A DNA stretch of 64,000 nt, taken from the IMG/VR virus record IMGVR_UViG_3300031772_000003, positions 99,717 through 163,716 of that record; one strand, given 5' to 3'. The DNA comes from a virus. Below the pieces are notes generated by a model that saw only the letters and a list, made by a program, of their open reading frames with translations, was not told the DNA's origin and did not search any database. Positions 564-60,437 of the stretch are shown here, one piece after another (within the stretch, counting starts at the first letter, position 1; every line of letters begins with the position of its first letter). The position numbers and the translations under genes were made by a program.

Positions 564-581
564 CACCCCTAGAATCAAGTG
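564..581 (-). promoter_or_regulatory. Conserved 18-nt motif copy 1 (CACTTGATTCTAGGGGTG)
   Basis: Exact copy upstream of 128..526. Confidence 0.65.
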
Positions 582-1258
582 GGCCTAACTAGCCGGCCAA
601 GAGTAGCCACAAGGTTGCGGCAGCCGCCGACCACCCCAACGACGAGCAGGGCGGCCTTGGAGATGAACCATCGCCGCCATTGGTGAGACAGGGGCGGTGG
701 GACCGCGGGCAGTGGTGGGGGCAGAATGGCTGGCCCTGTGGCCGGCAGCAGAATGTCCGACTGAACGATCACGGCGGGGTGGAGGGCGTCGCTCACGGTA
801 CGGATGACGGGGACAACGGGCTCGATTGGCTTCGCCCGCTCCAGGGGCTTGGCTCTCGCCGTCGGCCGGCGTTCCCACTTCACCCGCTGCACATTCTCCT
901 CTACCGTCCTAGAAGGGAGGAACGTGATTGTGCGGGGTGGCCGCTCGGCCCAAGGAGCCTCAAAAAGGATAACGCTCTTCATCTCGTCCACCTCGGCGGG
1001 AAAGGCCCAATGGCCTCTCCGTTCCCCTGTGGGTAGCCCCTCATCCCACAGATTGACCGAGATGGCTCCACCCCGCATCTTGAACCCATTGGGGTGGTGG
1101 GCCATTGTGCAGAGCCCATCAGGCTCCATCGTCAGCGACCACCGCTGGCCATCCCCCGCATGGCTTATCTCGACCGTCACCCGCAGTTCGAGGTACGGAC
1201 CCCTCGCGGTTCCCAGCCTGCTTCTGAATGTGCCAGCAGGGTAGTACAGTCCTGTCAC
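575..1258 (-). CDS. Hypothetical protein
   Basis: 227-aa ORF with AAGGAG RBS; Pro-rich segment and hydrophobic C-terminus. Confidence 0.4.
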   Translation of the reverse strand: MTGLYYPAGTFRSRLGTARGPYLELRVTVEISHAGDGQRWSLTMEPDGLCTMAHHPNGFKMRGGAISVNLWDEGLPTGERRGHWAFPAEVDEMKSVILFEAPWAERPPRTITFLPSRTVEENVQRVKWERRPTARAKPLERAKPIEPVVPVIRTVSDALHPAVIVQSDILLPATGPAILPPPLPAVPPPLSHQWRRWFISKAALLVVGVVGGCRNLVATLGRLVRPT

Positions 1259-1381: not shown

Positions 1382-1547
1382 AGGGGGTGGGGGGACTCGA
1401 ACCCCATCCTCGCAGCCCCACACCCATGGTGGCGAAACCGGTAGCTAGTCGGCCCCACCACAACAGGATGAAGGTGACAGGCAGGTAGCTAATCCTCCTG
1501 TGCCTCTACAAGGGGCTGCGCGCTCTAACCCTATGAGCTACACCCCC
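1382..1547 (-). ncRNA. tRNA-like RNA with 92-nt insert replacing the anticodon loop
   Basis: Acceptor GGGGGTG/CACCCCC; D arm GCTC-ATAGGGTTA-GAGC; 9-bp stem CGCAGCCCC/GGGGCTGCG; T arm GGGG-TTCGAGT-CCCC; insert 1420-1511 with two hairpins; no encoded CCA. Confidence 0.75.
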
Positions 1548-1580
1548 GCGGGATTCCAAAGAGCCTTCGATCTTCCCTCT

Positions 1581-1598
1581 CACCCCTAGAATCAAGTG
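1581..1598 (-). promoter_or_regulatory. Conserved 18-nt motif copy 2
   Basis: Exact copy ~33 nt upstream of the tRNA-like RNA. Confidence 0.65.
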
Positions 1599-9269: not shown

Positions 9270-9970
9270 GCCTTGCCCCTCATGTATTCTAGCGACCTCT
9301 GCCGAATCAGCTTATCACACGCCTTTTGCTTCGCCCTACCCGACGTTGACATGCTACCAGGTCGTGGGTGCCGATACACGTAGGTCACCACGGGTACATG
9401 CTTAGTCGCACAGCCCGTCTCCCCAAGTAGGACGGCTATCTGATAGTCTACCGCTGAGGAAATCGAGGTATCGAGACCCCGGCTTTTGCGGTAAAAATCC
9501 AGGGACCAGAACTGCTGACACCCCGCTCCCCACCACCCACAGTTACAAATCGCGCTCCATAGGGTAGTACCAGGAGGGAGGGGTTTGCTCCACCCGTGCC
9601 TATCGGTTCCCATAAACTTCCAGGCCGTCCATACATAACCGACAGACGTATCTTGAAAGGGGGGTACACCCACGGACAAGCTATTAGACATCAGGGTATC
9701 ATCACTGCCCAAGAACGTCACCACGTCGCCTGTGGCAGCGTCCAGGGCAGCTTTGAGGGCGGCGGCACAACCGCCGTGGGGGAGCTTGAGCAGGGTAACA
9801 GGCTGGCCCGCTATGAGGCTTTCCACAACGTCGGCAGTATCATCCGTCGAGCCGTCATCGGCGATGATCAACTCCCACTGCTTATGGGTCTGGGCGAACA
9901 CAGAGCGGATCGCCTCAGCTATATAGGGGGCAGTGTTGTAACATGGAACCAACACGCTTACCACTTTCAT
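9266..9970 (-). CDS. GT2 family glycosyltransferase
   Basis: VSVLVPCYN, ELIIADDGSTD, FLGSDD; ATGA overlap with the stop of the giant ORF. Confidence 0.9.
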   Translation of the reverse strand: MKVVSVLVPCYNTAPYIAEAIRSVFAQTHKQWELIIADDGSTDDTADVVESLIAGQPVTLLKLPHGGCAAALKAALDAATGDVVTFLGSDDTLMSNSLSVGVPPFQDTSVGYVWTAWKFMGTDRHGWSKPLPPGTTLWSAICNCGWWGAGCQQFWSLDFYRKSRGLDTSISSAVDYQIAVLLGETGCATKHVPVVTYVYRHPRPGSMSTSGRAKQKACDKLIRQRSLEYMRGKA

Positions 9971-12900
9971 GCTCTCGCTCTGATATTCACAGGCTGCCAT
10001 TCCCCTGATGGAAGCTGAATGCCGGTGACATGGACGGAACGGCCTTTGAGCAATCGAATCTCCTGCTCCTCCTCACCCAAGGATGGTTGGCAGCGGGCGA
10101 ACAGCGTCCCCTTCCAGTCAACACTCTTTGATGGAACCGACGCCCGGAGGACGACGCAGGGGCCCCCATGCCCCCAATGGCACTCCGCTTTGTCCTCCTC
10201 GTCAGCCCAGTAGACTCCAATCCCCCGTGTCCGGATGTGCTGCCACACCGTAGCGGGATCAACCGGGTCAACGTCGATGGCCCGGTACAGCACCAGGGGG
10301 TCGGACATCCCAGCAATGCCCTCAAGAGCATCGTCCAGAGCCCGCTCGATCTCTTCCCGAACCATCTTCTCCGCACGAGCATCCACCTCCACATCCGTCG
10401 CGTCGTCCCCAAGATCCTCCCGGGCGAGGTCAGCATAATTGTTTATCTCGTCCACGGAGTCGTGCAGCACCGCTGCAACCATCTCCTCCCGCTCCTCGTC
10501 GGTCAGTTCAGGGGCGAGGCTATAGGTGCTGGGCTGGAATGACTCCGCGACCTGCTGCCCCTGGTCAACCACCCGTTTCACAACGCCAGCCCGACGTACA
10601 GTAGGGGGTCGTCGCTTACTTGCTTGCCTTGCCATATCATCATTCACCCATGCAGGAGCTACGTCATAATCCTGCTCTCGCCAAATATCCGCACGGTGGT
10701 TCCCATCATTGATCACGACACTACCATCCACCTCACGAGTAACTACGATAGGAGGGAAGCCCCTACCAAAACTCCGCTGAAGCTCATCCTCTGGGTAGGA
10801 CTCAACCTCAGAGCGAGCCTGCAGCTCACGGGCGAGTAGTTCCACGTCGCTGTCATCATACCCATCATCGGGGTCCCACGGCAAGAAATCGCGCCAGTTA
10901 TCAAACCCAGAGCGATGATATTGCGTCTCCCCCGCGGTCCACCTCTCCAGCATCTCCTCAGCCTGCTCCATAAAAACAGGGTCAAGCTCTCCCTCGCCCT
11001 TACGTAGGGCTTCTGCACCCTGCTTCTCCACACGCTGCGGCTTCAGGTCAGCTAGGTCAACCATAGCGGTATAGACAAAACGGTCTGGCTTAACACCCAC
11101 GAATTGAGCCACCGTCTGCTGCGTCCACTTACCGTAATTGTCCGTAGCATCCCAATCATGCTCCGGCGCTTTTCCCTCGTAGTCATCCACGGGCTGACCA
11201 AGAGGGGGCACCGCAGCTTCAAGCAGGCTCTCGGTTACTTGCTCCCCCTGCTCGACCAACTTCTGGATCTGGTCATACCCGTTCTCGACCACAACCTCAG
11301 CGACCGGGTGCTGGTCAATGTACCTTCGGGCATTCACCAGCTTGCCCGTGTGCTTCAACGCCCGCAACGGCTCACGCGACGTGATCGCTCCCAACTGAAT
11401 CATCTGTGTGGTTACGTCCGCGAGCTTCCCCTTGTCCTTACCTACCAACACCCTCCTTCGAACTTCCTCTCCTTCCACGTCCACCTCATCCCCAACAAGG
11501 AAACCACTACGTTCCTGGGGGTTCTTGAGGATCACACGAAAGGTCTTGCCGTCTGGGGTCTTGGCAGTAACTTGCTCGAACGGGAAGGGAGCTAGATCAG
11601 GATGATCTATGCCTACTTGTTCCTGTATCCCGGACTCGTCCCGCTCGACCAGCTTCTGAATCTGCTCATGTGCGTTCTTCAACAGTGCGGCAAGTCCGAA
11701 GTGTTGGGGCTTGACCCGGTACATCTCCTCCCACGTCACCCACCTATGGCCCTCCGTCTCCCAACCATGTCCAGGCTCGAACTCCTCCGGGACGATGCCG
11801 AGGAAATTGGAGTACTGGAACCCCTCAGTAGTATAGACATAACTCGGCACTAGCTCCATCGAGCCCGTGTACCCCGTCTCCTCAATGAACTCGCGTCGAG
11901 CCGCGGTCTCCGGTGCCTCGTCCTCGATGCGACCCCCCCAGATGCCCCAAGTGTGGGGCTCGTTGACCTCGGAGCTACGGTAGGCCAGCAGGAACCGGCC
12001 CGTGGAGGTGCAGAGGGGGAGGATGCCTGCACCTTGATCGCCCCAGAAATGGCGGCCAGCAGTATTCGCGTAGTAGGTGCCGTGGGGGGTAAGAGCTTCG
12101 ATAAGGGCACCGGCATTGACACAGCGGTCCAGATAATCCACCGCGTCCTCCTGGGACAGGTAGCGATGGTGGTGGGTTATGTTAGAGTCCCACCACTCAA
12201 ACTCCACCTCTGGGCAGTCATCAGGAGATTGGCCAGCCACAAGCTCCCGGAGGGTCTGGAGAGCGGCCACGGCAAATGGTGCTTTGCTGCTGCCTATCTG
12301 TACCTTGAACCCTGAACCATCGTCTCCGGGACGGATACGGATGCTCCCCGCATCCAGGGCAGCCTGGAAGCCATCCTTGCCATACTTACGCTCAGCCCTA
12401 GCGACATGGTGTAGCCCACCACCCCAGGCATTGGTGCCGTGGTCAAACGAACCATCAGACCATACCCATGCACCATAGGGACCAATCTCGTAGGGGCTGA
12501 GGCGGGCTTCCTGCACACTCTCCTCCTGCACCTGCCCCGCGATCTGAATCCACTGCCGCACCAGGTTCTTCATCTCCCACACAGTCATCGTCTCACCGGG
12601 AACCTCGGACTCAACACCGACCTCTGTAGTTAGCTCCACCGTAAAATGTGCGGAGGTGTGGGCAAGAAGGTTCAAGAGGGTGAGGTATGCAGCATTGGAC
12701 GTAAGCCCCGCCATTGGGGGGGCACAACGCACGAACAAAGTAAGGTCCTCTAAATTGACAAGGATGCCCCCATGCTCAATACCCAAGCGGATGCCGGCGG
12801 CGTCATCCCGATCATCATCCGGGACAGCGGGCGCATACTTGTCATAAGCCGCCTTTGCATGGAAATAGCCGGTCTCAATCTCCCCATCACCCCATATCCA

Positions 12901-15900
12901 CGTCCCATTCTCAGCCACGTCCTCAATGCTCGCGTAGGCTTCGGAGAGAGATTCCACCACACTACTAGCCTTTATCCGTAGCTCACGGAGCCTGTCCTCA
13001 AGGGGGGTCCAATCTACCGCCTGACCAGCGATCACCCGTATATCCACGTCAGACTCCCCATATGGCCTCTCAAACTGGCCTGTCTCCTGATTTAGCTTTG
13101 CACCACCACCGGCAGGTTGGCGATGATTAGATAGTCTAATCTCTAGCCCATCCTCTCCATCAAACAACTCAAATTGTAGATACCATGAGTCTGCGAAATC
13201 ATGACAGTTATCTTGCCCGCCTAAGTGAATCAAACCCACAGACTCACACCGCTGAATCACCTCATCTGCTGCCAGAAGCAGGGCATCTCTATATGCAAGA
13301 GCCGCTTGGTAAGTCTCCTCCGCCTCCTGCTTCTTTGCAGCATCCTCTTCGTCTTGCTCGCTATCACGTAATGCAGCATCATAGAGACTTGCCTCCCACG
13401 CCTCGTCCGAATCGTAGTCTCGCCTTGGGAAGGCATCCAGGAGATCGGGTAAGTACTGCCTTAGCTCATCCGGCCAGTCATCCCCTATAACCTCACACAC
13501 CACCCTGTCCAACTGCCCCACGTCATCCACGACTTTGCTCTGCTTGAACCAGGCACGGAACTCCGGGGTGTCCGTGGCGAGCCTGGGGTCGGTAGCCTCC
13601 GTCAGGGCTTCTGCCGTCCAACCGGGTTGAAATGGGATACCAGCCGCGGGCGCTATGCGGGGGAAGTCCATGTAGAAGTCATCGGGCAACCCCGCCCGCT
13701 TCGCATGCCTCTTGGCCAGCGCCAGGAGCTTAGCGGCCTTGCGCTCACACTCCTCAGCATCCTTTGGGTAGCCCAGCCGCTTCCACTCCTCCACCTCATC
13801 CTGTTCCTTGATCGCCATCAAGTAGTAGTGCGTCGCAAGAGAGTAGGACGGAATCCTGTAAGCCCCCTCACTCAGCGCCATGTCCAGCGAGCCCACGGTG
13901 CGGGCATCCACCACGAACCGCCCTTTGCCCATCAAGAACTGCACCGCCAGTTCATACTGAGCCTTCCAGTCAGCCCGCTGCCGATCCTGCCAATGGGTGA
14001 GAAAGTCCCGGTCAGTCCGCTCGATTGCGGAGTAACCCGGCATGCTCCTGCCCTGGAAGTAGGAGAGGTCCTGCCACTGCTCCCCCAATTTGATCTCAGT
14101 CTTCTTGCCATCTTTCCCACTGAACGTCACGGTGCCAATGGTGAACTCTTTGCCTGTCAAGGAGCCGTCACCCACGTATCGTGTGATAGCTTCTGGCTTC
14201 AGGTAGGCAACCGTTGCGTGGGCGTGGTACTCGGGGTGCGTGTCGGTACACTTGAGGTTATCCGAGACGAGCTTGTTGAGCCGGTCCAAGCCGGCACTCT
14301 CGATGTCGTACTTCAACACAGCGGCGTTATCCGAGGATTCGCTAGGAGGGAAGGATGAAAGCTTGCCAAACTTGATCGTGACCCGCTCCTCGCCCTTGAG
14401 GGGCTTCTTCACTTCCTCCGGGTCGGAGGTGTGCAGCCCGTACTTTATCGTAATGTGGGCCTCTGTCTCCCGACCATCCCCCATCAAGTCTTCGTCCTTG
14501 ACCCGCATACCCTGCGCGAGTATGCCCTCCTTAGCCCCACCAATGAGGTCGGCTTGCAGGCAACCATAATCGTGGGTCTCCTCATTTAGAGCCGCGTCCA
14601 ACGCACCGATGGTGCGAGCCTCAAACGTAACGATCTTCTTGGGATTAAATGCGTCCTTTAAGTCGCGCAGCAACGCCTCGGGAATGGGCCGATAGCGCTG
14701 TGCCTCCGGGGGCACTACAGAGACCCAACCAGTCCGCGCATCGTACCTGCCTTTGTAGAGTTTACCTGCTACTCCTGGACCAAACTCTATGTCGTGTGAT
14801 CCAGGAAGGTTGATCCCCTCGTGATCCCTAACATTGATTACCAAACCCCCCGGCCCAGTCCACATCCAGATGGTATGGATAAGACTTTCTTCATCTTCGT
14901 CCTCTCCCCCCTGATCGTGCCCGATCTGAAAATAGAGTTCAGCGGCTTGATCCGCAGGGTCCTGATCCTCATAGGGATCAAAATTGGGGTAAATAGTAGA
15001 TCCCCGCTCGGTGGCTTTTGCAACTTCCCGCTTCCACGATACCGGCCTCTTGGCCTCACTCAGCATGCGGTCTAGCCCCCCTACTGTGGCCTCAGCGGGC
15101 ACCCCTCGGGGCTCGGGCCTGGCCCGACTTGGGTCATAAGCGGCGGGTCCCGCTGTAGACAAGCGCTGGAACTCCTGCTTCGCCAGTTCCATGATCTGGT
15201 CTACCAGAGCCTTCGCCTCCGGATCGCCCTCCACGGACTGGTACAGGACCCGGTACTTCCGGGTATCCTCCCACCGGGCCTCCGGCCCCTTCTCCCGCAC
15301 CAGTTCCCAGTACTCAGCCGCCAGTTCCGTGGCATACGCCCGCTGCTCCCCCGGCCATGAGAAGTAGTAGCCGGCATTCCTGGAGCCGGCGTAGGTCGTG
15401 GGCCAGTCCCCTAAGTCCGTCCGTGCCTTGTCTTCGATGGCGTGGTAGGTCTCGTGCGTCATGATGCCAGCAAACTCTTCCACGAATCTCCTATCGGACA
15501 CCCAAAGATAAATTGCGCCCTCACCGGGCGAGTACATGCCCCCACTTCCAGCCCCGGAATCAGCCCCCGGCGTATACGTGAGTCCGCCCCCATGCGTCTT
15601 GATGTGGACCCGCATCCCAAACAGGTCCCAGCGAAACTTGTCCAGCACCTTCGGGTCTTTGGGCGTAGGAAGCCCCGATGCTTCCAAGTCCTGGATTATG
15701 ATGTCGATGGTCCGCTGGCCGATGACCTCACGTAGAGTAACGGTATAGTCCACACCTACCGGAATCTTCCCATTGAGTTCCTGCGCCCATCTGCGGGCCT
15801 TCTGATAGATCAATGCTGGGACCAAAGATTCGACCAGCAAGTCCAGTTCGCCCACGGTGTGGGCATCAGCGGACATCGCATCCTCAATCACAGGGGCCTC

Positions 15901-18900
15901 GCCTGCCGGGGTGACGGAGTCCAGGGCGATCTCCTGAATGCCGGCCCTACCGGGCTGCTTGTCTGGGTGCCACGAGCCTGTCCGCCTAACGCGCCACACC
16001 CGCGTCGGCGTCGCAGAGGCCAAACTCGCCAAGGGCTTGCCCTTGAGGACCCGGAGGAGCTCTGCCCTGTCATAACGGGTGAGGGCCCGGAGGATTTGCT
16101 TGCCGGCCATCGGCACCGCGGGGTAATCCCCACCAAGTGCGAGGCGGAGAACCCTGGGGGTAACGTGCCGCTTAGCAAAGTCGAGGAGCCAATCAAGGCT
16201 CTTGAGAGTCTCGGCAGGGGTGTAGCCCATGTCGGGATGTACCCGCACGAGCTCGGCATAATGCTCCGGCCTCTCTTGAACCATCTCGATCCACAGGAGA
16301 AGGCCCCCCACATCATCCTCATCAGGGTCCACGTCGGTCAAGGCGGACCCTGGCACCTCGAAGACATAACCCCATGGCTCCTCCTCCACAGGTATGCCGG
16401 GGTGGTTAGCGTAGGAAACGGCCTCCCCAAAAGACGGAGTCAGGTAGACCGCTTCCCGCCGAGCCTGTTGCCATCCCCGTTCCCTGCTCCCCCCTAACGG
16501 CTTGAGGCCCTCCCGGACAATGGCATCCGCTGCGGCTTGAGTGGGGCACCCGTGGTAGTAGGCCGTGGCCCGCATCGGCTCATCGGGGGTTGGGGCCTCC
16601 ATGAGGGATTCAACGAGGTGGGCCAAGCTGCCGATGGACTCCTCAACACCCACGTCATATTCCTCATCATTCAGCTTTGCCCCATAGTAGCCAGGCTTCT
16701 CGTAATACTGGTGGGTCCAGTAGTCCAGCATGTCCTCTGGTACTGTGTCGGCCCGTTGCCACCGACCGCCGATGAGAATATCGTACTGGCTGGGCTCAAG
16801 CACTCGTTCCTCATAGTCGCCAGTGTCCACATATCTATCATTTGGGAATGCCCCACACTGTTGCAGCCTATCGTCCAAGAAATGAGCGGGGATACGGACG
16901 GCGACCCTACTCCGCGCGAGGGACGCATCATCGAGCCAATTAGCCTCGGTAGTAACATAGAACCTGTAGGTTCCCTCCTCATCGGGGTCCTGATCCGCCC
17001 ACCTGTTCTCCTCCCGGGGGATGTCCACAAAAGAGCCGGGCATATCACCGGGATGGGCGGTGTAGAGGCCCTGCCGCAACAACGCTCGCATATCACCTTT
17101 GGGATGATAGCGGTAGTAATAGCTTCCCCTGTGCTGCTGATGTGCAACCGTGTCCTCGGCCAAGGACTCCTCAGCCCTACCCACGAGCAAGGAGGACATG
17201 GGGACTCGTTCCCAGCCGTCTTGTGGGTAAAGGTTCTGCTCCGGGCCCTGGATCAGGTCCTTCCGCCACATCCTATCCGGCCTCAACACCCCGTGGTGAG
17301 CAATGACAATAGGGCTCAGGGCAATAAGCTCCTGCTTCTGCTCCGGTGTCATCAGGGTAAGCAGACACTTCGTGTTCGCTGCCAAGGGGTTCTCCGGGTT
17401 ATCCTGCTCAGCCATCTGCCACAACCAGTCAGGGCATGTCTGCCCGTACTGCCCATCCCACGAAAGAATATAGGACACCTCGGAGTCATCAGGCTCAACA
17501 TCCATGAGAGCGGAGCCGGACACCCCAAACACGTATCCATACCGCTCGTCACTATTCGAGGCATAGTCCGCGGCGACCCCAAAATCAGGTGTCAAGTACA
17601 CCCTACCACGAGTTGGGCAGGCTGCGGGTCCACCCATCTTATCCCACGGTTGACTATACGATCTATCGGGTTGAATCCCAGACCTCGCAATCGCCCGTGC
17701 CTTCCGGGTCGTGGGGCAGCCGTGGTAGTACATCTTCTCGGCCTGCTCCTGTGACGGAGGAGGGGATTCCTGAAGAGCCTCTGAGAGCAGGGAGGACAAG
17801 GGGTACGCTTTCCAACCAGACTGATCCCAATAGTGCCCCTCACCAGGATGACGCAAGCGCCAGACCCGTGTAGGCACCACAGGCCCCAGATGGGCCACGG
17901 TCAATGGCCTCTCCCGCATCACCTCCTGCTTTTGCTCCGGGGTCATTCGCCGGAGGATTTCACGGGGATCGGCCATGTGGGGGCTACCAGGATCGACCGC
18001 AGCAGCTATATCATGGAGCCAATCGGGGGTATCATCACCCCACAGGAGGCTGCCCACCCTATCCTCATCGGGCTCCACGTCCTGCAGGGCCGAACCGGGC
18101 ACCTCGAAGATGTAGCCATCAGGCGGGTAGTCATCGGGGATTCGCGGGTCATGCCCGGACGTAAGAGCATATTCCACAGCAACCCCAAAATCAGGTGTGA
18201 GGTACACGCGCCCCTGCATCGGCTCCACCCGCGGAGACCAATGACGACTCGGTAACTGATCCGGTCTGATCCCAAATCGAGCGATCTCATTGGCCCTTCT
18301 TGCGCTGGAACAACCATGGTAATAGGTCTGCTGGGTCTGTGTCTCAGAAGGGGGCGGGGCCTCGATGAGCATGGCCCGGTCAAGGGACCCAATAGATTCG
18401 CCTACCAACTCAAACAATAACTCCCCACCCGTTCCTCTTACAGGTGCCCCCTGCATCTCAGGGAACCGCTGCTCGATTGCCTCTACAGCATGATGCACCT
18501 TCAGTTTCGCCCCACGATCCCACCTCTCCCACATACCATAGAACTCAATTCCCCACTCCGCCTCCACAGCATCAGGTGGGTAGAAGCAACCCCGCTGAGA
18601 TATGATTTCCTGCTGATCCACATCACACAGCAGCCCACCTCCCTCAGTGTAGCCCAAGACATCCCCACGCTTGTGTCCCGCCCTCCGAAGCAACCAATCC
18701 AGGAGTATTGGCACATGATCTTCCACTGTGGTCATCGTGACCCTGTAGGTGTCCTCATCGCTACCCTCCTCATCATACTCCTCATCATCTTCTATCCCCC
18801 ACTCCCGCGGCTCCCCTTTGACAGACACCCGCAACAATGTTAGCAGGGCTTTACTGCCGTCCATTGTCAAGAGCCCAGTCTCGCGTGACCATACAAAGTA

Positions 18901-19239
18901 GACCTCGCCCAGCTTGCGGGAGAGCAGGGCTTCCATGGTCGGTCGCTGCCGGTAGCGCCGCTCCACCTCCGTAGCCGCAGCGTGCGCCCGCTCGTAGTCC
19001 CATCCCTGAAGCATCAGAGATCGCTCATAAGTTTCGTGGACCAGCACAGCGGGCATCTCAACGGGCTGGACGCCGTTGTCGATCCAGATTTCGTCTTGGG
19101 GGATGAAGGCGTAGCGGCAGCCATTCCCGCCCTGAGAGAAATCCAAGTCGTAGGTATCGCGGACGGCCCTGCCGTCCACGATCCAGACTTTGAGGCCCTG
19201 TGTCGTGCCCCAGTAATGGATGTAGGGGGAGGGCAGCAT
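9967..19239 (-). CDS. Giant modular polyvalent protein 1 (~3,090 aa): zincin-like, ART-like x~5, 2H phosphoesterase, Nudix, ParB-like, unnamed repeated domains
   Basis: Single ORF, start moved to MLPSPY after GAGGG RBS; motifs YYHG..VYLTP..DVEPDED x3, HETYH, HITI/HATV, GGRIEDEAPETAARREFIEETG, PPIVV..DGNHR, LYRAI..EQEIRL; 7 copies of the linker motif. Confidence 0.85.
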   Translation of the reverse strand: MLPSPYIHYWGTTQGLKVWIVDGRAVRDTYDLDFSQGGNGCRYAFIPQDEIWIDNGVQPVEMPAVLVHETYERSLMLQGWDYERAHAAATEVERRYRQRPTMEALLSRKLGEVYFVWSRETGLLTMDGSKALLTLLRVSVKGEPREWGIEDDEEYDEEGSDEDTYRVTMTTVEDHVPILLDWLLRRAGHKRGDVLGYTEGGGLLCDVDQQEIISQRGCFYPPDAVEAEWGIEFYGMWERWDRGAKLKVHHAVEAIEQRFPEMQGAPVRGTGGELLFELVGESIGSLDRAMLIEAPPPSETQTQQTYYHGCSSARRANEIARFGIRPDQLPSRHWSPRVEPMQGRVYLTPDFGVAVEYALTSGHDPRIPDDYPPDGYIFEVPGSALQDVEPDEDRVGSLLWGDDTPDWLHDIAAAVDPGSPHMADPREILRRMTPEQKQEVMRERPLTVAHLGPVVPTRVWRLRHPGEGHYWDQSGWKAYPLSSLLSEALQESPPPSQEQAEKMYYHGCPTTRKARAIARSGIQPDRSYSQPWDKMGGPAACPTRGRVYLTPDFGVAADYASNSDERYGYVFGVSGSALMDVEPDDSEVSYILSWDGQYGQTCPDWLWQMAEQDNPENPLAANTKCLLTLMTPEQKQELIALSPIVIAHHGVLRPDRMWRKDLIQGPEQNLYPQDGWERVPMSSLLVGRAEESLAEDTVAHQQHRGSYYYRYHPKGDMRALLRQGLYTAHPGDMPGSFVDIPREENRWADQDPDEEGTYRFYVTTEANWLDDASLARSRVAVRIPAHFLDDRLQQCGAFPNDRYVDTGDYEERVLEPSQYDILIGGRWQRADTVPEDMLDYWTHQYYEKPGYYGAKLNDEEYDVGVEESIGSLAHLVESLMEAPTPDEPMRATAYYHGCPTQAAADAIVREGLKPLGGSRERGWQQARREAVYLTPSFGEAVSYANHPGIPVEEEPWGYVFEVPGSALTDVDPDEDDVGGLLLWIEMVQERPEHYAELVRVHPDMGYTPAETLKSLDWLLDFAKRHVTPRVLRLALGGDYPAVPMAGKQILRALTRYDRAELLRVLKGKPLASLASATPTRVWRVRRTGSWHPDKQPGRAGIQEIALDSVTPAGEAPVIEDAMSADAHTVGELDLLVESLVPALIYQKARRWAQELNGKIPVGVDYTVTLREVIGQRTIDIIIQDLEASGLPTPKDPKVLDKFRWDLFGMRVHIKTHGGGLTYTPGADSGAGSGGMYSPGEGAIYLWVSDRRFVEEFAGIMTHETYHAIEDKARTDLGDWPTTYAGSRNAGYYFSWPGEQRAYATELAAEYWELVREKGPEARWEDTRKYRVLYQSVEGDPEAKALVDQIMELAKQEFQRLSTAGPAAYDPSRARPEPRGVPAEATVGGLDRMLSEAKRPVSWKREVAKATERGSTIYPNFDPYEDQDPADQAAELYFQIGHDQGGEDEDEESLIHTIWMWTGPGGLVINVRDHEGINLPGSHDIEFGPGVAGKLYKGRYDARTGWVSVVPPEAQRYRPIPEALLRDLKDAFNPKKIVTFEARTIGALDAALNEETHDYGCLQADLIGGAKEGILAQGMRVKDEDLMGDGRETEAHITIKYGLHTSDPEEVKKPLKGEERVTIKFGKLSSFPPSESSDNAAVLKYDIESAGLDRLNKLVSDNLKCTDTHPEYHAHATVAYLKPEAITRYVGDGSLTGKEFTIGTVTFSGKDGKKTEIKLGEQWQDLSYFQGRSMPGYSAIERTDRDFLTHWQDRQRADWKAQYELAVQFLMGKGRFVVDARTVGSLDMALSEGAYRIPSYSLATHYYLMAIKEQDEVEEWKRLGYPKDAEECERKAAKLLALAKRHAKRAGLPDDFYMDFPRIAPAAGIPFQPGWTAEALTEATDPRLATDTPEFRAWFKQSKVVDDVGQLDRVVCEVIGDDWPDELRQYLPDLLDAFPRRDYDSDEAWEASLYDAALRDSEQDEEDAAKKQEAEETYQAALAYRDALLLAADEVIQRCESVGLIHLGGQDNCHDFADSWYLQFELFDGEDGLEIRLSNHRQPAGGGAKLNQETGQFERPYGESDVDIRVIAGQAVDWTPLEDRLRELRIKASSVVESLSEAYASIEDVAENGTWIWGDGEIETGYFHAKAAYDKYAPAVPDDDRDDAAGIRLGIEHGGILVNLEDLTLFVRCAPPMAGLTSNAAYLTLLNLLAHTSAHFTVELTTEVGVESEVPGETMTVWEMKNLVRQWIQIAGQVQEESVQEARLSPYEIGPYGAWVWSDGSFDHGTNAWGGGLHHVARAERKYGKDGFQAALDAGSIRIRPGDDGSGFKVQIGSSKAPFAVAALQTLRELVAGQSPDDCPEVEFEWWDSNITHHHRYLSQEDAVDYLDRCVNAGALIEALTPHGTYYANTAGRHFWGDQGAGILPLCTSTGRFLLAYRSSEVNEPHTWGIWGGRIEDEAPETAARREFIEETGYTGSMELVPSYVYTTEGFQYSNFLGIVPEEFEPGHGWETEGHRWVTWEEMYRVKPQHFGLAALLKNAHEQIQKLVERDESGIQEQVGIDHPDLAPFPFEQVTAKTPDGKTFRVILKNPQERSGFLVGDEVDVEGEEVRRRVLVGKDKGKLADVTTQMIQLGAITSREPLRALKHTGKLVNARRYIDQHPVAEVVVENGYDQIQKLVEQGEQVTESLLEAAVPPLGQPVDDYEGKAPEHDWDATDNYGKWTQQTVAQFVGVKPDRFVYTAMVDLADLKPQRVEKQGAEALRKGEGELDPVFMEQAEEMLERWTAGETQYHRSGFDNWRDFLPWDPDDGYDDSDVELLARELQARSEVESYPEDELQRSFGRGFPPIVVTREVDGSVVINDGNHRADIWREQDYDVAPAWVNDDMARQASKRRPPTVRRAGVVKRVVDQGQQVAESFQPSTYSLAPELTDEEREEMVAAVLHDSVDEINNYADLAREDLGDDATDVEVDARAEKMVREEIERALDDALEGIAGMSDPLVLYRAIDVDPVDPATVWQHIRTRGIGVYWADEEDKAECHWGHGGPCVVLRASVPSKSVDWKGTLFARCQPSLGEEEQEIRLLKGRSVHVTGIQLPSGEWQPVNIRARA

Positions 19240-19249
19240 GTCGTTGCCC

Positions 19250-19579
19250 TCAATTAGGTGGGCCACTACGCATCTGCGTAGCAATGAGCAACCGAAGTGA
19301 TTCTATTTCCTTTGTCTGACTCTTGATCGCGTCCTTAATCTCTTTGAGGCTTTCATGAACCACCGTAGCTATGACCTCTGCTGCGACGGCCTTATGTTCT
19401 GCTACGGTCAAGCGCGCACTCACTTGTGACGACACGGCCCATGTAAAGGCGTAGGCCCCGCAAGGAAGAACGATGAGGAAGCCGAGCGCGGTGAGGAACG
19501 CCCATAAAGGCGTCCTACCCTTGACGCAAGCGGTGCGGTGCTGCTCACAAGTCTCGGTTGTCACAGGCGTAGGCATCAT
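19250..19579 (-). CDS. Small single-pass membrane protein with coiled coil (holin/XhlA-like)
   Basis: Hydrophobic LWAFLTALGFLIVLPCGAYAF then heptad segment. Confidence 0.5.
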   Translation of the reverse strand: MMPTPVTTETCEQHRTACVKGRTPLWAFLTALGFLIVLPCGAYAFTWAVSSQVSARLTVAEHKAVAAEVIATVVHESLKEIKDAIKSQTKEIESLRLLIATQMRSGPPN

Positions 19580-27361: not shown

Positions 27362-27634
27362 ATGCTGCCTGAGATGGTTCCTGGTTGGGTTTTGTACGTC
27401 ATCCTTCCTGTCCTCGCCGTGTGTGTTGGCTACACCCTGCTCTCACATCAGGCGGTCGCGGAAAGCAAGGTAAGCCAAACGGCACTTGAGAAGGAAAATA
27501 CGAGCCTTCAGGCAAAGGTTCGTGAGCTTGAGTCGGTAGTAGCGAAGTACGGGGTCATAATGGACAAGTTTGACACAATTGGGTGTATCCATGATCCCGT
27601 CACCGGCAACGTCAGGTACATCTCCAGAAGGTAA
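27362..27634 (+). CDS. Membrane-anchored coiled-coil protein (only plausible plus-strand gene)
   Basis: GAGGAG RBS; N-terminal TM; heptad segment; lower GC. Confidence 0.5.
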   Translation: MLPEMVPGWVLYVILPVLAVCVGYTLLSHQAVAESKVSQTALEKENTSLQAKVRELESVVAKYGVIMDKFDTIGCIHDPVTGNVRYISRR

Positions 27635-39150: not shown

Positions 39151-52747
<13,597 letters not shown>

Positions 52748-52751
52748 GATC

Positions 52752-53006
52752 TCAACCCTCCTTGTTGGCAAACTCCACCTTGGCAGGGAGGGCATCGAGA
52801 TCGGAGAGGATGTTGGCGAGGCGGGCCGCGGCCTCATTGAGATCAATGAGGGTATCGGCACGGCCAATAGGCTCAAGAAATGAGCGCATGATCGGGCTGT
52901 CCGCAGTGACCAGCGCGCGGCGCAGCGCATCCGCCGCGATTTGCAGGTCGGCCTCAAACTTGAACCGGACACCACCTGTGAGAACGGGGTGGGTACGTGC
53001 GGCCAT
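52752..53006 (-). CDS. Small helical hypothetical protein
   Basis: GAGGA RBS; contains DLNEA. Confidence 0.5.
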   Translation of the reverse strand: MAARTHPVLTGGVRFKFEADLQIAADALRRALVTADSPIMRSFLEPIGRADTLIDLNEAAARLANILSDLDALPAKVEFANKEG

Positions 53007-53270
53007 TGTTGCTTCCTCAAGCAGACAGGCACCGAGCCTCAAACTCTCGCTGGGCAATGGCTTCACGGAGCTTCGCGGGGTGCCAGAGGCGCACATGAGT
53101 ATGACATACGGGTCGCTTCACCAAACTCTGGGGGGTGTTTATAGCCCCTCCCACCCCTACTGAGCTTCCAGATCGTATTACCCCTCATGCGCTCGGAGCA
53201 AAGGCGCTTGATATGCTCGGGGCAGGGCTCACCTTTACGAGGCATTGCTGGTGTCCAGCTTAGGGGGGAG

Positions 53271-55412: not shown

Positions 55413-57563
55413 TCAACTTGTACCCTCCACCACCGCTTCCATTAGACTCTGGGGCCGCTTCACCCCTCCTATGGGGGCGACACCGGCAGCGGCCTTAACG
55501 ATCCGGACGCAATCGGCTGAGGGGGCCCAAATGGTACGGCCCTCGGTCAGCACCGAGCCATCCCACTTATAGGCCGCAACGGGGGGCAGTCCAGCAGGAG
55601 AGAGGTGCCAACTCGACATGTAGCCTGGGAACAACACGTCCTCCAAGAGCTTCCTGCCGGTGCTGAGACGCACCGCCGCGGCCAGCAACTCCGCGGGCTT
55701 GATCCCCTGCCAGTCCAGGGCCAATGCTTCGGGGTTGAACCTGTTGAGGTCGGCGGCGAGCCCACTGACCTGCAAGACGTACTTGGCCCACTCGTCTTTG
55801 GGCAGGCCCAACCGATCACCAGCGTCCGTGAGGGCCTCCACGGCCTCGGCGCGCATCTTCGCCGTCTCCGCGCGCTGTTTCTCCTCAAGGAAACTGATCG
55901 GGACCATGTGGATCTCGAACTCGTTACCGGGCTTGTAGGGATTGATGCCGCGCCAGCACAGATCGATCTGGAAGGCTCGGACCAATCCGGTAATGACGGC
56001 GCGCTGAATCCGCTTACACGACCTAGAAAATTGGATGTCAATTTGGCAGTTGTGTACGAAAGCCCCACAAGCCAAGGCGAAGTTGTGATGGCCATCCACA
56101 GACAAGTCATACACATCGGCAACACCGCCGGGCGCGACGGAGACAATCTTATGGTTACACGCCACCTTACCTAGCGAGACCCAACGGCCCCGCTTGTAGA
56201 AAGGCATTACCGAATCCCCCTCGCAAAGTGTACCAGCAGGCTTGTAGCTGCCGTCCCGCAGCATGACAGGGTGATCGGAGGTGCAGCGGAAGCTCTCCCC
56301 GTTATCCAGCACCACACAAAGAACAGGAGCCCCCTGTTTCGTCAGCCTGGCGGAGTGAGCAACCCCAGGACGCAGGCGGTGGTTCATGGGGTCTACGGCA
56401 TACACCCAAAACTCATCACCGGCCGCCCCCGCGGCAAGCTGCTCCATTGACAACACACGCCCATCCGCCAATGGAACCAGAGTATCACCCGTCAAACAGA
56501 GAGGACTTTGTCCCAGCACCCCGCCCCTAGCCTCTGAGAACCCCACATACTCCGGGGGCACCCTCACGGTGCCAAGGAAGCGCTTGCGGGCGTATTCCAC
56601 GTCTAAGACACGGCCCAAATCGGTGTTGCCCTTCAGGACATCCACGTCGACCATCTCGTCGTCAACATAAATGTCATCATCCACAGTGAACGGATCGATC
56701 TCGGATCGAACCTCCCCGGTAGTGGGGTCAATGAGCCGCTTCTTCCGGATCTCATCCCGCATCTCCTGCATCAGGCTACGGCGCTCCTCCGGCGAGAACT
56801 CCGCCGAGTTCTTAATCTTGAACCGGAGACGGTCCGGGGCGATTTTGAGGCGGAGAAGTATAAGGCTATCCTCTACCATTCTGAGTCTGCGAAAAGGCCG
56901 CCTTGCGGGCTGGAACACCGATGTTCCACCCTTCCCGGTGCGATCACGGCCCGACACCATGTACTGGACCAGGGACCACGGGAGCTCCGCTGGCTTGTCC
57001 TTGGAAGCGCTGTCCCCCACCTCCAAGCCAATCCTGTATCCAATCAGCCTGTTCACCTCATCCCACACAGGGGTCACGATCTTGGGGTCCAGGGGAACGG
57101 AACCAAACATGGGGCCCTTGAGCCCTGTCTTCGCATCCTCCTCCTGGAGGGGGCAATCGTAAGCCACCCCATACTTCGCGGTGTCCCTGGCGAGCCCGAA
57201 GACGTTGTCCTCGATCCTGAGCACGTCCCGCAGGAACTCCTCACCGAGCTTGGCGATGATCTCATTCTTGGAGGTGAGCCACACCGATCTGCCCGTAGCG
57301 TGGTCAATCTGCGTCGCGTCCTCGGCGTAGAGGTCGAGGATCGAGGACGGCAAGTCGTCCTCATCCATGACCTCATATTCCGCGAACCTCTGAATGCGGT
57401 CGGCACCGAGGCGCATTTGCCTGCGGAAGAACTCAGACACGAGGTCGGAGACGCCGCCCCGGCTCACGGCACCGGCGGGGCTGACCGGAGTGCGCGCGAG
57501 AGCGCCGCGCCGGCCCATACCCGTAGCGCGTTTAAGCCAGGACAAACCGGGGACACGAAGCAT
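55413..57563 (-). CDS. Portal protein (T4 gp20-like) with intein
   Basis: EYEVMD..ILDLYAEDAT and LRMVEDSLILLRLKIAPDR match the gp20 family; adjacent to TerL. Confidence 0.85.
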   Translation of the reverse strand: MLRVPGLSWLKRATGMGRRGALARTPVSPAGAVSRGGVSDLVSEFFRRQMRLGADRIQRFAEYEVMDEDDLPSSILDLYAEDATQIDHATGRSVWLTSKNEIIAKLGEEFLRDVLRIEDNVFGLARDTAKYGVAYDCPLQEEDAKTGLKGPMFGSVPLDPKIVTPVWDEVNRLIGYRIGLEVGDSASKDKPAELPWSLVQYMVSGRDRTGKGGTSVFQPARRPFRRLRMVEDSLILLRLKIAPDRLRFKIKNSAEFSPEERRSLMQEMRDEIRKKRLIDPTTGEVRSEIDPFTVDDDIYVDDEMVDVDVLKGNTDLGRVLDVEYARKRFLGTVRVPPEYVGFSEARGGVLGQSPLCLTGDTLVPLADGRVLSMEQLAAGAAGDEFWVYAVDPMNHRLRPGVAHSARLTKQGAPVLCVVLDNGESFRCTSDHPVMLRDGSYKPAGTLCEGDSVMPFYKRGRWVSLGKVACNHKIVSVAPGGVADVYDLSVDGHHNFALACGAFVHNCQIDIQFSRSCKRIQRAVITGLVRAFQIDLCWRGINPYKPGNEFEIHMVPISFLEEKQRAETAKMRAEAVEALTDAGDRLGLPKDEWAKYVLQVSGLAADLNRFNPEALALDWQGIKPAELLAAAVRLSTGRKLLEDVLFPGYMSSWHLSPAGLPPVAAYKWDGSVLTEGRTIWAPSADCVRIVKAAAGVAPIGGVKRPQSLMEAVVEGTS
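56049..56498 (-). mobile_element. Mini-intein (150 aa) in portal
   Basis: CLTGDT block A, TSDHP block B, VYDLSV block F, VHN/C splice junction; no endonuclease. Confidence 0.9.
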
Positions 57564-59794: not shown

Positions 59795-60437
59795 CTTGCT
59801 GCATTCCCTGGAGACGGGCGAGGACACGCCGGATCGCCTCACGGTCTGATGGGGGCAATACCGCCTCCTCCCCACCCAACGGCTCTTGGTCGGCTCCAAG
59901 TTCCTTGAGAAGGGTTTCCAACCGTTGCGCCAGCGTCGCGGTCCCACGGCTATCCTTGTCCACCGCCGCGGTAATCATCGCCAAGTCTGCCGCAATCGAC
60001 TGCTCCAGCCGTGCCTGGAGAGTAGTGACCTCGACGGTCTTGAGCGTCCCCAGCCCCTTGAGGTCCTCAGCCCGGCGCTTCAACTCAGCATCCACGTCCA
60101 GCAGAGCGGAGTTGAGCCCGTTGATCCGGTCGATTCGCGTCAGCATCAAGAGGTGAAAGGCCAGCCTGATCTTGACATCCTGTTCCCGGAGCCTAGCTAG
60201 GGCGGCAGCCGGCAGGTCTCTGTTCTCGCTGCCGTCCTCCAGCCATTGAGCCACAGCGCCTAGCAACTCGATCAGGGTCTGGCGGCGCACCCTAATCGGT
60301 GGCACCCTCAGCGCCGTGTGGATGTGCAGATGCCCACCCAACGCCTTACGGCTCGTAAATATCTTGGGGCAGTGGGGGCAGGGGTGACACTCCACTAACG
60401 CTGTCGCCGCTGTTGTCGCCGCCCCTTCTTCAGGCAT
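59748..60437 (-). CDS. C2H2 zinc-finger coiled-coil protein; candidate small terminase
   Basis: CPHCPKIFTSRKALGGHLHIH; position directly upstream of terL. Confidence 0.55.
   Translation of the reverse strand: MPEEGAATTAATALVECHPCPHCPKIFTSRKALGGHLHIHTALRVPPIRVRRQTLIELLGAVAQWLEDGSENRDLPAAALARLREQDVKIRLAFHLLMLTRIDRINGLNSALLDVDAELKRRAEDLKGLGTLKTVEVTTLQARLEQSIAADLAMITAAVDKDSRGTATLAQRLETLLKELGADQEPLGGEEAVLPPSDREAIRRVLARLQGMQQDGHTGPGTRIALPPG

What the first reader, a model, noticed from the sequence alone, without database searches (positions are those of the whole stretch)
1382..1547. tRNA scaffold whose anticodon loop is replaced by two hairpins with palindromic TAGCTA loops
Seen: intact acceptor, D and T arms. 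The anticodon stem is extended to 9 bp and opens into 92 nt with two hairpins, ACAGG-AGG-ATTAGCTA-CCT-G-CCTGT and TGGTGGGGCCG-ACTAGCTAC-CGGTTTCGCCA. The loops share GAYTAGCTACC, and the core TAGCTA is self-complementary. The RNA has its own copy of the 18-nt upstream motif. Known: palindromic hexamer loops mediate kissing interactions (e.g. retroviral DIS), and phi29 pRNA oligomerises through loop-loop pairing. Inference: a stable tRNA-mimic ncRNA that may self-assemble, present two protein-binding loops, or decoy anticodon nucleases. It is too short for a group I intron and does not fit tmRNA.
Basis: partly seen in the sequence, partly recalled or inferred. Interest (0 to 1): 0.78.

Follow-up and report, generated by a model that had tools for sequence, protein, structure and literature searches.

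The report
Phage tRNA look-alike with twin hairpins
An uncultured 164-kb sediment phage carries one gene for an RNA with the full body of a tRNA, but two hairpins with identical self-pairing loops sit where the anticodon loop should be, so it probably cannot read codons; its job is unknown and no relative was found.

Summary
Window 1382-1547 (minus strand) encodes a 166-nt RNA with tRNA acceptor, D and T arms (Rfam tRNA 38.7 bits, cut-off 29, once a 99-nt insert is allowed). A 9-bp stem opens into a three-way junction with two hairpins whose loops share GAYUAGCUACC (palindromic core UAGCUA). One of 18 same-strand copies of a gene-start motif ends 33 nt upstream.

No single excision restores a canonical anticodon arm. 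The His(GUG) reading leaves a 6-7 bp stem and lacks G-1/C73; the Thr(UGU) reading leaves an 8-bp stem. I found no bulge-helix-bulge motif, ribozyme, group I, tmRNA, YrlA or preQ1 match.

Best reading (0.45): an unspliced, non-decoding tRNA look-alike that displays two identical loops. Main rival (0.2): a protein-spliced tRNA. The phage has three ATP-dependent RNA ligases and a second odd, permuted tRNA-like locus.

No homolog turned up in viral, metagenome or genome collections, and no RNA data, so conservation, covariation and expression are untested.

This scan has noted anticodon-less phage tRNA look-alikes and hairpin-interrupted phage tRNAs on other DNA before. This one is a new variant with a forked arm and twin palindromic loops. 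Interest is moderate.

The parts
1382..1547 (-). Whole tRNA-shaped gene, 166 nt from G1 (1547) to discriminator U (1382); CCA is not encoded
   Evidence: Rfam RF00005 scores 38.7 bits over model positions 1-71 with a 99-nt insert. MFE cloverleaf.
1581..1596 (-). Copy of the dispersed gene-start motif CTTGATTCTAGGGGTG (candidate phage promoter or 5' leader signal); it ends 33 nt upstream of G1
   Evidence: 18 copies, all on the minus strand. Most are followed by a purine-rich tract and a start codon.
1522..1547 (-). Acceptor 5' strand GGGGGUG, U8 A9, and D arm GCUC-AUAGGGUUA-GAGC
   Evidence: Rfam alignment; fold.
1512..1520 (-). 5' strand of the 9-bp stem: anticodon stem CGCAG plus the CCCC extension
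1507..1511 (-). Single-stranded junction UUGUA. With its flanking C and G it reads CUUGUAG, the anticodon-loop-like heptamer behind ARAGORN's Thr(UGU) reading
1471..1506 (-). Hairpin 1: 12 bp in three segments with bulges; 8-nt loop AUUAGCUA at 1493-1486
   Evidence: -12.5 kcal/mol, z -2.0.
1421..1470 (-). Hairpin 2 arm: outer helix CAUCC/GGGUG and a 12-bp hairpin (1461-1429) with 9-nt loop ACUAGCUAC at 1449-1441. The 3' strand runs into ...GCC-ACCA
   Evidence: -19.6 kcal/mol, z -2.1; fold.
1411..1419 (-). 3' strand of the 9-bp stem: GGGG plus CUGCG
1382..1410 (-). Short variable loop AGGA, T arm (U)GGGG-UUCGAGU-CCCC(C), acceptor 3' strand CACCCCC, discriminator U
   Evidence: Rfam alignment; the U49.C65 pair is flagged as non-standard.
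575..1258 (-). Next gene downstream (227 aa, no homolog). No motif copy or terminator lies between it and the RNA, so it is possibly co-transcribed

Best explanation
The element is a non-decoding tRNA look-alike. It is transcribed from its own copy of the phage's gene-start motif. It folds into a normal tRNA elbow (acceptor, D and T arms), so the host's tRNA enzymes (RNase P, 3' trimming, CCA addition) should treat it as a tRNA and make it stable.

In place of the anticodon loop, the anticodon stem continues for four more pairs into a three-way junction. That junction holds up two hairpins of about 12 bp each. The hairpins are capped by near-identical loops (A-Y-UAGCUA-C), and the six-base core pairs with itself.

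The tRNA body acts as carrier and entry ticket to tRNA-handling proteins. The twin loops are the working end. They either pair with each other, within one molecule or between molecules, or bind two copies of one protein. There is no single-stranded anticodon loop to read codons or to be cut.

Shown: the anatomy, the tRNA score, the fold statistics, the motif, and the lack of a canonical spliced product. Inferred: expression, processing, stability and what the loops do.
For: - The tRNA body is intact. RF00005 scores 38.7 bits against a cut-off of 29, and the elbow nucleotides are present (U8, A14, G18G19, G53-U54U55C56-A58-C61).
- With the natural stem CGCAG/CUGCG, none of the eight ways of making a 7-nt loop from the flanks has U33 (read).
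- ARAGORN's two solutions are both non-canonical. His(GUG) needs a 6-bp stem plus a possible C32-G38 pair, and it has C at -1 and U73 instead of G-1/C73. Thr(UGU) needs an 8-bp stem, a mismatched D stem and an 8-nt variable loop.
- No convincing bulge-helix-bulge motif at the junctions. No splicing endonuclease gene. No ribozyme, group I, tmRNA, YrlA or preQ1 hit at E up to 10.
- The insert is an ordered module. Fold z is -3.9 with 0 of 200 shuffles as stable. The two hairpins have different stems but the same 11-nt loop block (3.3% of shuffles before any positional requirement). The loop-loop duplex is -5.9 to -6.5 kcal/mol.
- It is not a repeated or mobile sequence in this genome.
- It has its own copy of the 18-copy gene-start motif, 33 nt upstream, and lies in an ORF-free gap.
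- It is the only tRNA-like gene ARAGORN finds in 164 kb even with introns allowed, which is unlike a codon-supply tRNA set.
Against: - No homolog was found, so there is no evidence that the loops or stems are conserved, and no covariation.
- There is no direct evidence of a transcript.
- ARAGORN does return intron-containing readings, and the His reading has a proper C-U-GUG-G-G loop.
- The phage encodes three ATP-dependent RNA ligases, one only 1.8 kb downstream on the same strand. Short unexplained introns have been reported in phage tRNAs (PMC6784885).
- The T stem has one mismatch.
- A six-pair A/U-rich kiss is weak on its own.
Confidence: 0.45

Rival explanations
1. It is an intron-containing tRNA spliced by proteins. 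Host or phage nucleases cut out the roughly 87-93-nt twin-hairpin insert, and one of the phage's ATP-dependent RNA ligases reseals the anticodon loop. The product is most plausibly a tRNA-His(GUG)-like molecule.
For: - ARAGORN with introns allowed gives His(GUG) with a 91-nt intron and a proper loop C-U-GUG-G-G.
- There are three RNA ligases, including a T4 Rnl1-like one (PF09511, 31.9 bits). T4 Rnl1's known role is sealing broken anticodon loops (established knowledge). A second ligase sits 1.8 kb downstream.
- No PNK or RtcB was found. The ligases would therefore need 3'-OH/5'-P ends, the ends that RNase P, Z, III and E leave.
- Short unexplained introns are reported in phage tRNAs (PMC6784885; PMC13037316).
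- A second, permuted tRNA-like locus in the same genome would also need ligation.
Against: - Every excision leaves a non-canonical anticodon arm: 6-8 bp stems or no U33.
- His identity is missing (C-1 and U73, not G-1/C73).
- No bulge-helix-bulge motif and no EndA gene.
- The insert is not tRNA-shaped by covariance model, unlike the Lak-type inserts, so no known enzyme is predicted to cut at the required sites.
- Homologs of the nearby ligase occur in other phages without any such RNA within 10 kb.
Confidence: 0.2
2. It is a processing or regulatory signal in the leader of the downstream mRNA. The tRNA shape recruits RNase P and 3' processing to cut the transcript and set the 5' end or stability of the mRNA for the 227-aa gene. 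The hairpins add a binding site for a regulator.
For: - No motif copy and no predicted terminator lie between the RNA (ends at 1382) and the next start codon at 1258. The next motif copy comes only after that gene.
- tRNAs co-transcribed with mRNAs are well known (established knowledge, e.g. the tufB operon).
Against: - A plain tRNA would suffice as a processing signal. This does not explain the twin identical loops.
- The other 17 motif-led units have no such element.
- The downstream protein has no homolog or recognisable function to tie it to the RNA.
Confidence: 0.12
3. It is a dead tRNA gene: a former tRNA whose anticodon loop was disrupted by an inserted sequence and which no longer has a function.
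For: - It is a singleton with no homolog found anywhere.
- There is one T-stem mismatch and no usable anticodon.
Against: - The tRNA body still scores well above the Rfam cut-off.
- The insert is highly ordered, prolongs the anticodon stem by four perfect pairs, and is not a repeat or mobile element in the genome.
- The locus keeps a gene-start motif at the right distance.
- The phage genome is tightly packed.
Confidence: 0.13
4. The repeated GGTAGCTA(R)TC blocks act at the DNA level, for example as twin binding sites for a DNA-binding protein or a nuclease target within a tRNA gene. The RNA hairpins would then be incidental.
For: The core TAGCTA is a DNA palindrome, and the two blocks are 44 bp apart in direct orientation.
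Against: - Each block sits exactly at the tip of a hairpin whose stems differ in sequence yet both pair. That points to selection on RNA structure.
- TAGCTA is not otherwise unusual in the genome: 14 observed, about 22 expected.
Confidence: 0.05

Closest known systems
Canonical bacterial/phage tRNA (Rfam RF00005)
   Same: Acceptor, D and T arms, the elbow nucleotides, a 5-bp anticodon stem and no encoded CCA. It scores above the family cut-off once the insert is allowed.
   Different: There is no 7-nt anticodon loop. A 100-nt stretch (4 extra pairs plus a 92-nt forked module) sits in its place. Default tRNA finders reject it.
'Enigmatic' introns in phage tRNA genes (Lak megaphages, Devoto et al. 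2019, PMC6784885; noted again for jumbo phages in PMC13037316)
   Same: A phage tRNA gene interrupted in the anticodon region by a short sequence too small to be a group I intron; mechanism unknown.
   Different: In those cases removing the insert gives a normal tRNA, and at least one Lak insert was itself predicted to encode a tRNA. Here no excision gives a canonical tRNA, and the insert is a twin hairpin that gets no tRNA hit of its own. The hosts and phages are unrelated (26% GC gut megaphages versus a 61% GC sediment myovirus).
Phage T4 stable RNAs species 1 and 2 (rnaC, rnaD), function unknown
   Same: Small stable phage RNAs with a partial tRNA-like acceptor/T-arm domain, and no decoding role known (my knowledge). 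The rnaC/rnaD annotations are. rnaC shows a T arm and acceptor-like helix.
   Different: No sequence or model similarity: R1 finds nothing in the T4 region. T4 rnaC reaches only 17.5 bits on a tRNA-type model, whereas this RNA is a full tRNA body. T4 has no twin palindromic loops.
YrlA / bacterial Y RNAs with a tRNA-like domain
   Same: A non-coding RNA that mimics a tRNA body and is handled by tRNA enzymes (established knowledge).
   Different: In YrlA the RNA ends lie in the Ro-binding stem, not at the acceptor end (my recollection). There is no Rfam YrlA hit. Presence of a Ro/Rsr gene was not examined.
Archaeal/eukaryal tRNA introns (bulge-helix-bulge, position 37/38)
   Same: An insert in the anticodon arm. 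ARAGORN's fixed 37/38 reading gives CUUGUA|G.
   Different: No bulge-helix-bulge motif at the junctions, no EndA gene, and the spliced product would have an 8-bp stem. The virus looks like a tailed phage of bacteria (T4-like portal, DnaB-type helicase). The bacterial host is inferred, not shown.
Kissing-loop RNAs: HIV-1 dimerisation initiation site, phi29 pRNA
   Same: A six-base self-complementary core in a 9-nt hairpin loop with two unpaired bases before it and one after. Loop 2, AC-UAGCUA-C, has the same 2+6+1 layout as the HIV-1 DIS loop (my knowledge). Two loops per molecule could give dimers, chains or rings.
   Different: This is resemblance only. The core is A/U-rich, the duplex is only about -6 kcal/mol, and there is no experimental or comparative support. 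This T4-like phage has no known need for a packaging RNA.
Engineered 'tRNA scaffold' for RNA expression (Ponchon and Dardel)
   Same: The same design: the anticodon stem is kept and extended, and the cargo RNA replaces the anticodon loop, so cells process and stabilise it like a tRNA (my knowledge).
   Different: That is a laboratory construct. This would be a natural counterpart.

Membership tests
tRNA (RF00005) | Cloverleaf with acceptor, D and T arms scoring above the curated cut-off | tested here: met
   38.7 bits against a cut-off of 29, model positions 1-71, when a 271-nt region is searched. It is not reported in the whole-window gathering search.
tRNA (RF00005) | 7-nt anticodon loop with U33 on a 5-bp stem | tested here: not met
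   100 nt lie between the stem strands. No prefix/suffix combination of the flanks gives U33. Default ARAGORN finds nothing.
Spliced tRNA, bulge-helix-bulge type | Two 3-nt bulges separated by a 4-bp helix at the exon-intron junctions | tested here: not met
   A lenient scripted search gave only G.U-rich matches that break the tRNA stems, and none at the junctions.
Spliced tRNA, bulge-helix-bulge type | Splicing endonuclease (EndA, PF01974) available | tested here: not met
   No match in the phage, while the controls ring in 4 archaea. The host genome is unknown.
Spliced tRNA (any mechanism) | Excision restores a canonical tRNA with matching identity elements | tested here: not met
   His reading: 6-7 bp stem, C-1/U73. 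Thr reading: 8-bp stem, D-stem mismatch, 8-nt variable loop.
Spliced tRNA (any mechanism) | Junction-spanning RNA reads | not testable with these tools
   Only two DNA sediment runs hold the sequence; no RNA holder is listed.
Group I intron in a tRNA anticodon loop | Catalytic core (P3-P8), usually more than 200 nt | tested here: not met
   The insert is 87-100 nt. No Intron_gpI hit at E up to 10.
tmRNA | tRNA-like domain with G3:U70, a tag reading frame and pseudoknots | tested here: not met
   ARAGORN's tmRNA search finds none. No Rfam hit. The acceptor stem has G3:C70.
YrlA / Y RNA | Match to the family model; Ro-binding stem formed by the RNA ends | tested here: not met
   No Rfam hit. The RNA ends are at the acceptor stem.
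preQ1-I riboswitch (considered because of the UAGCUAC loop) | P1 hairpin plus an A-rich tail forming a pseudoknot; match to the family model | tested here: not met
   No hit at E up to 10 in 271 nt. No A-rich tail follows either hairpin.
tRNA-shaped phage introns (Lak type) | The insert itself folds as a tRNA or mini-tRNA running from a 5' end to a CCA 3' end | tested here: inconclusive
   No second tRNA hit inside the insert. Hairpin 2 is nonetheless a 10-12-bp helix followed by ACCA. Cutting there would not restore a tRNA.
Kissing-loop dimer RNAs | Self-complementary hexamer exposed in an apical loop | tested here: met
   UAGCUA lies in both predicted loops; the duplex is -5.9 to -6.5 kcal/mol.
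Kissing-loop dimer RNAs | Loop-dependent dimer or multimer formation | not testable with these tools
   This needs native gels with loop mutants.

The most novel reading that the evidence does not exclude
This phage runs its own cut-and-ligate tRNA biology. The interrupted tRNA (this element) and the permuted tRNA-like locus at genome 27477-27556 would both be substrates of the phage's three ATP-dependent RNA ligases: one Rnl1-like, one with homologs named 'RNA circularization protein', and one with a PHA02142 OB domain. Functional tRNA-type molecules would then be made, or remodelled, only during infection. That would be protein-dependent tRNA splicing and rearrangement in a virus of bacteria, a route not shown experimentally.
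Probability: 0.1. Interest if true: 0.9.

Novelty: new variant of a known kind. Interest (0 to 1): 0.55.

Why it matters
Phages are known to carry tRNAs and a few tRNA-like stable RNAs whose roles are still unknown (T4 rnaC and rnaD, to my knowledge for about 50 years). This scan keeps finding anticodon-less tRNA look-alikes in unrelated phages.

This example is the clearest 'carrier plus cargo' design so far. It has a complete tRNA body with a forked arm that shows two identical self-pairing loops, which makes it a natural version of the laboratory tRNA scaffold.

If it is expressed, it offers a simple test system: loop mutants, native gels and pull-downs could show what such RNAs do. Possible roles are a decoy for tRNA-targeting defences, a protein sponge or a self-assembling RNA.

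If it is instead spliced, it would be evidence for enzyme-driven tRNA splicing in bacterial viruses. That would link it to the three RNA ligases of this genome.

Tried and rejected
**Homolog searches (all empty or at chance level)**
- blastn of 261 nt against 50,697 phage records: no match.
- Twin-loop pattern in IMG/VR: 10 stretches, about the number expected by chance; none is tRNA-like.
- Twin loops plus T loop in IMG/VR: none.
- Same pattern in metagenome contigs: 2 hits, both AT-rich coding sequence.
- Looser version in 185,579 species genomes: 2 hits, both coding sequence.
- Exact D-arm 20-mer in IMG/VR and in genomes: none.
- Loop plus T-arm pattern in IMG/VR: one unrelated AT-rich tRNA-like sequence.

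**Relatives found through proteins**
- The upstream 254-aa gene has no relative.
- The DUF6876 neighbour has one relative at 35% identity, with no tRNA.
- Tail-sheath relatives are at most 50% identical. Five whole records have no hit to insert model R1 and one ordinary tRNA-Thr, which does not align to this element.
- The downstream 227-aa protein matches only itself among 5.8 billion clusters.
- A ligase homolog at 71% identity sits in a groundwater phage with no such RNA within 10 kb.

**Expression**
- No RNA holder is listed. Two DNA sediment runs hold the sequence: one is the probable source, and the other covers only 1585-1964.

**Ideas rejected**
- preQ1 riboswitch (the loop resembles that of the B. 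subtilis aptamer): no model hit and no A-rich tail.
- Other hairpins with the same loop as operator sites elsewhere in the genome: none.
- The insert as a repeated mobile element: only one copy.
- Archaeal-type splicing: no bulge-helix-bulge motif and no EndA.
- RtcB, AAA_33-type kinase and CCA-adding enzyme in the phage: none found.
- The PF09511 genome search was blank, and so were its controls. The direct Pfam scan did find the domain.
- Neighbouring proteins gave no functional lead in Pfam or the ESM Atlas.

Full report
**Where it lies.** The window is bases 99717-163716 of a 163,716-bp IMG/VR virus record that is about 92% complete and 61% GC. The only sequencing runs that hold it are sediment metagenomes. 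The virus is a tailed phage with a tail sheath, a DnaB-type helicase, a PurZ-like enzyme and a T4-like portal carrying an intein. Genes are tightly packed, mostly on the minus strand. A bacterial host is likely but inferred.

**The observation.** On the minus strand, window 1547 to 1382 reads as a tRNA:
- acceptor stem GGGGGUG/CACCCCC;
- U8 and A9;
- D arm GCUC-AUAGGGUUA-GAGC;
- G26;
- anticodon stem CGCAG/CUGCG;
- a four-base variable loop;
- T arm GGGG-UUCGAGU-CCCC, with one irregular U.C pair at its base;
- discriminator U, and no encoded CCA.

Between the anticodon-stem strands lie 100 nt. CCCC and GGGG prolong the stem to 9 bp. The remaining 92 nt form a three-way junction: a single-stranded UUGUA, hairpin 1 (12 bp in three segments, loop AUUAGCUA), and directly after it a longer arm ending in a 12-bp hairpin 2 (loop ACUAGCUAC). 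The loop regions share GAYUAGCUACC, and the core UAGCUA is its own complement.

**Statistics.**
- Rfam's tRNA model scores 38.7 bits (cut-off 29), E 5.5e-7, once the small region is searched with permissive filters. Default ARAGORN and the gathering-threshold scan of the whole window report nothing.
- The stem plus insert folds at -55.3 kcal/mol, z -3.9; none of 200 shuffles is as stable.
- A repeated 11-mer with at most one mismatch appears in 3.3% of shuffles. Requiring both copies to cap hairpins and the core to be palindromic makes chance much less likely.
- The 11-mer occurs nowhere else in the genome. A covariance model of the insert (R1) finds only itself in the whole phage.

**Expression signals.** CTTGATTCTAGGGGTG occurs 18 times, always on the minus (coding) strand. 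Most copies are followed by a purine-rich tract and a start codon. One copy lies at 1596-1581, ending 33 nt before G1. It does not fit the sigma-70 consensus, so I call it a candidate phage promoter or leader signal.

No motif copy or predicted terminator separates the RNA from the next gene (575-1258). The two may therefore share a transcript. No RNA run holds the sequence, so expression is inferred only.

**Is it a spliced tRNA?**
- With introns allowed, ARAGORN offers tRNA-His(GUG) with a 91-nt intron after C32. With the intron fixed at 37/38, it offers tRNA-Thr(UGU) with an 87-nt intron. Neither is canonical.
  - The His reading shifts the stem by one, leaving a 6-bp stem and a possible seventh C32-G38 pair. 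The gene has C at -1 and U73, not the G-1/C73 of bacterial tRNA-His.
  - The Thr reading leaves an 8-bp stem, a mismatched D stem and an 8-nt variable loop.
- With the stem that the Rfam model aligns, no combination of flanking bases gives a 7-nt loop with U33.
- A scripted search found no bulge-helix-bulge motif at the junctions.
- The phage has no EndA, RtcB, AAA_33 kinase or CCA-adding enzyme.
- Rfam gives no group I, ribozyme, tmRNA, YrlA or preQ1 hit at E up to 10.
- The insert is not tRNA-shaped. Hairpin 2 is, however, a 10-12-bp helix followed by ACCA; cutting there would not restore a tRNA.

**What keeps splicing alive.**
- The genome has three ATP-dependent RNA ligases:
  - a T4 Rnl1-like enzyme (PF09511);
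  - one with a PHA02142 OB domain;
  - a minimal one only 1.8 kb downstream on the same strand, whose homologs some sources name 'ATP-dependent RNA circularization protein'.
- With no kinase-phosphatase recognised, these enzymes would need 3'-OH/5'-P ends, as left by RNase P, Z, III or E.
- The same genome also holds a permuted tRNA-like locus at genome 27477-27556. Its T arm, 3' acceptor strand and CCA come first, then a 13-nt linker, then the matching 5' acceptor strand and D arm. The anticodon-stem strands GUGGG/CUCAC also pair.
- Short unexplained introns in phage tRNAs are on record (PMC6784885; PMC13037316).

These are circumstantial. A homolog of the nearby ligase sits in a groundwater phage with no such RNA within 10 kb.

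**Relatives.** None was found, by DNA similarity, by loop and arm patterns in viral, metagenome and genome collections, or through neighbouring and hallmark proteins. The pattern hits were at chance level and fell in coding or unrelated sequence.

The only internal hint is that the two hairpins have different stems that both pair, under the same loop block.

**Verdict.**
- Most likely (0.45): an unspliced, non-decoding tRNA look-alike. The tRNA body would give processing, stability and access to tRNA-handling proteins. The forked arm would display two identical self-pairing loops (duplex about -6 kcal/mol) for a kiss or for a dimeric partner.
- Rivals:
  - a protein-spliced tRNA (0.2);
  - a dead tRNA gene (0.13);
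  - a processing or regulatory signal for the downstream mRNA (0.12);
  - DNA-level sites (0.05).

**Comparison with what is known.**
- It passes the tRNA body test but fails the anticodon-loop test, so it is not a working member of the tRNA family.
- It fails the tests for bulge-helix-bulge introns, group I introns, tmRNA, YrlA and preQ1.
- By design, the closest things are the laboratory tRNA scaffold, T4's unexplained stable RNAs and the Lak-type phage tRNA inserts.
- Unchecked notes of this scan describe anticodon-less phage tRNA look-alikes, some with self-complementary loops, and hairpin-interrupted phage tRNAs on other DNA. This is therefore a new variant of a recurring but undescribed kind, not a first.

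Noticed in passing
Genome 27477-27556 minus strand (L014:7477-7556), outside the window: Permuted tRNA-like locus. T arm GCAGG-UUCGACU-CCUGC, 3' acceptor strand UGCCCGC, U and CCA come first. After a 13-nt linker come the matching 5' acceptor strand GCGGGCG and a D arm. GUGGG after the D arm pairs with CUCAC before the T arm. The anticodon is unclear. ARAGORN accepts many artificially rejoined versions, so this is weak evidence on its own.
   Followed up: partly
Genome 64855-66156, 88242-89300 and 98542-99267, all minus strand (L037, L035, L036): Three ATP-dependent RNA ligases in one phage: Rnl1-like (PF09511, 31.9 bits), PF09414 plus a PHA02142 OB domain (93.5 bits), and a minimal PF09414 enzyme (58.9 bits). 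Some homologs of the last are named 'ATP-dependent RNA circularization protein'. No RtcB or AAA_33 kinase was found.
   Followed up: partly
Window 564-33336 and the rest of the genome, minus strand: Motif CTTGATTCTAGGGGTG has 18 copies, all on the coding strand. Most are followed by GGAGG-like tracts and start codons. It does not fit the sigma-70 consensus. It is a candidate phage-specific promoter or leader.
   Followed up: partly
Genome 13044-14336 minus strand (L013): Strong match to the PurZ-type family phrog_1211 (E 6e-74). The phage DNA may therefore carry 2-aminoadenine instead of adenine.
   Followed up: no
Window 55413-57563 and 57563-59947, minus strand: A T4-like portal protein interrupted by an intein splicing domain. 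The neighbouring 794-aa gene, which has no other Pfam match, also has an intein domain.
   Followed up: no
Window 1506-1559 minus strand: A 17-codon frame starts at UUG (1559-1557), about 6 nt after a GAAGG tract. It runs through the 5' half of the tRNA-like RNA and stops at the UAG of the junction UUGUAG. Probably coincidence.
   Followed up: no
L041:925-1010 (IMGVR_UViG_3300023049_000574, 145.5 kb): An unrelated AT-rich phage has, just before an array of three tRNA-Ser genes, an ~85-nt sequence with a tRNA acceptor stem and T arm but no standard D or anticodon arm. ARAGORN does not call it. It is another tRNA look-alike.
   Followed up: no
L042:11825-18910 (groundwater contig Hain_H43, ENA ERZ1292629): The phage that carries the closest homolog of the minimal ligase (71% identity) also has a 2361-aa ART-PolyVal giant protein. 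This recalls the two giant polyproteins of this window (9967-19284 and 40823-53032).
   Followed up: no
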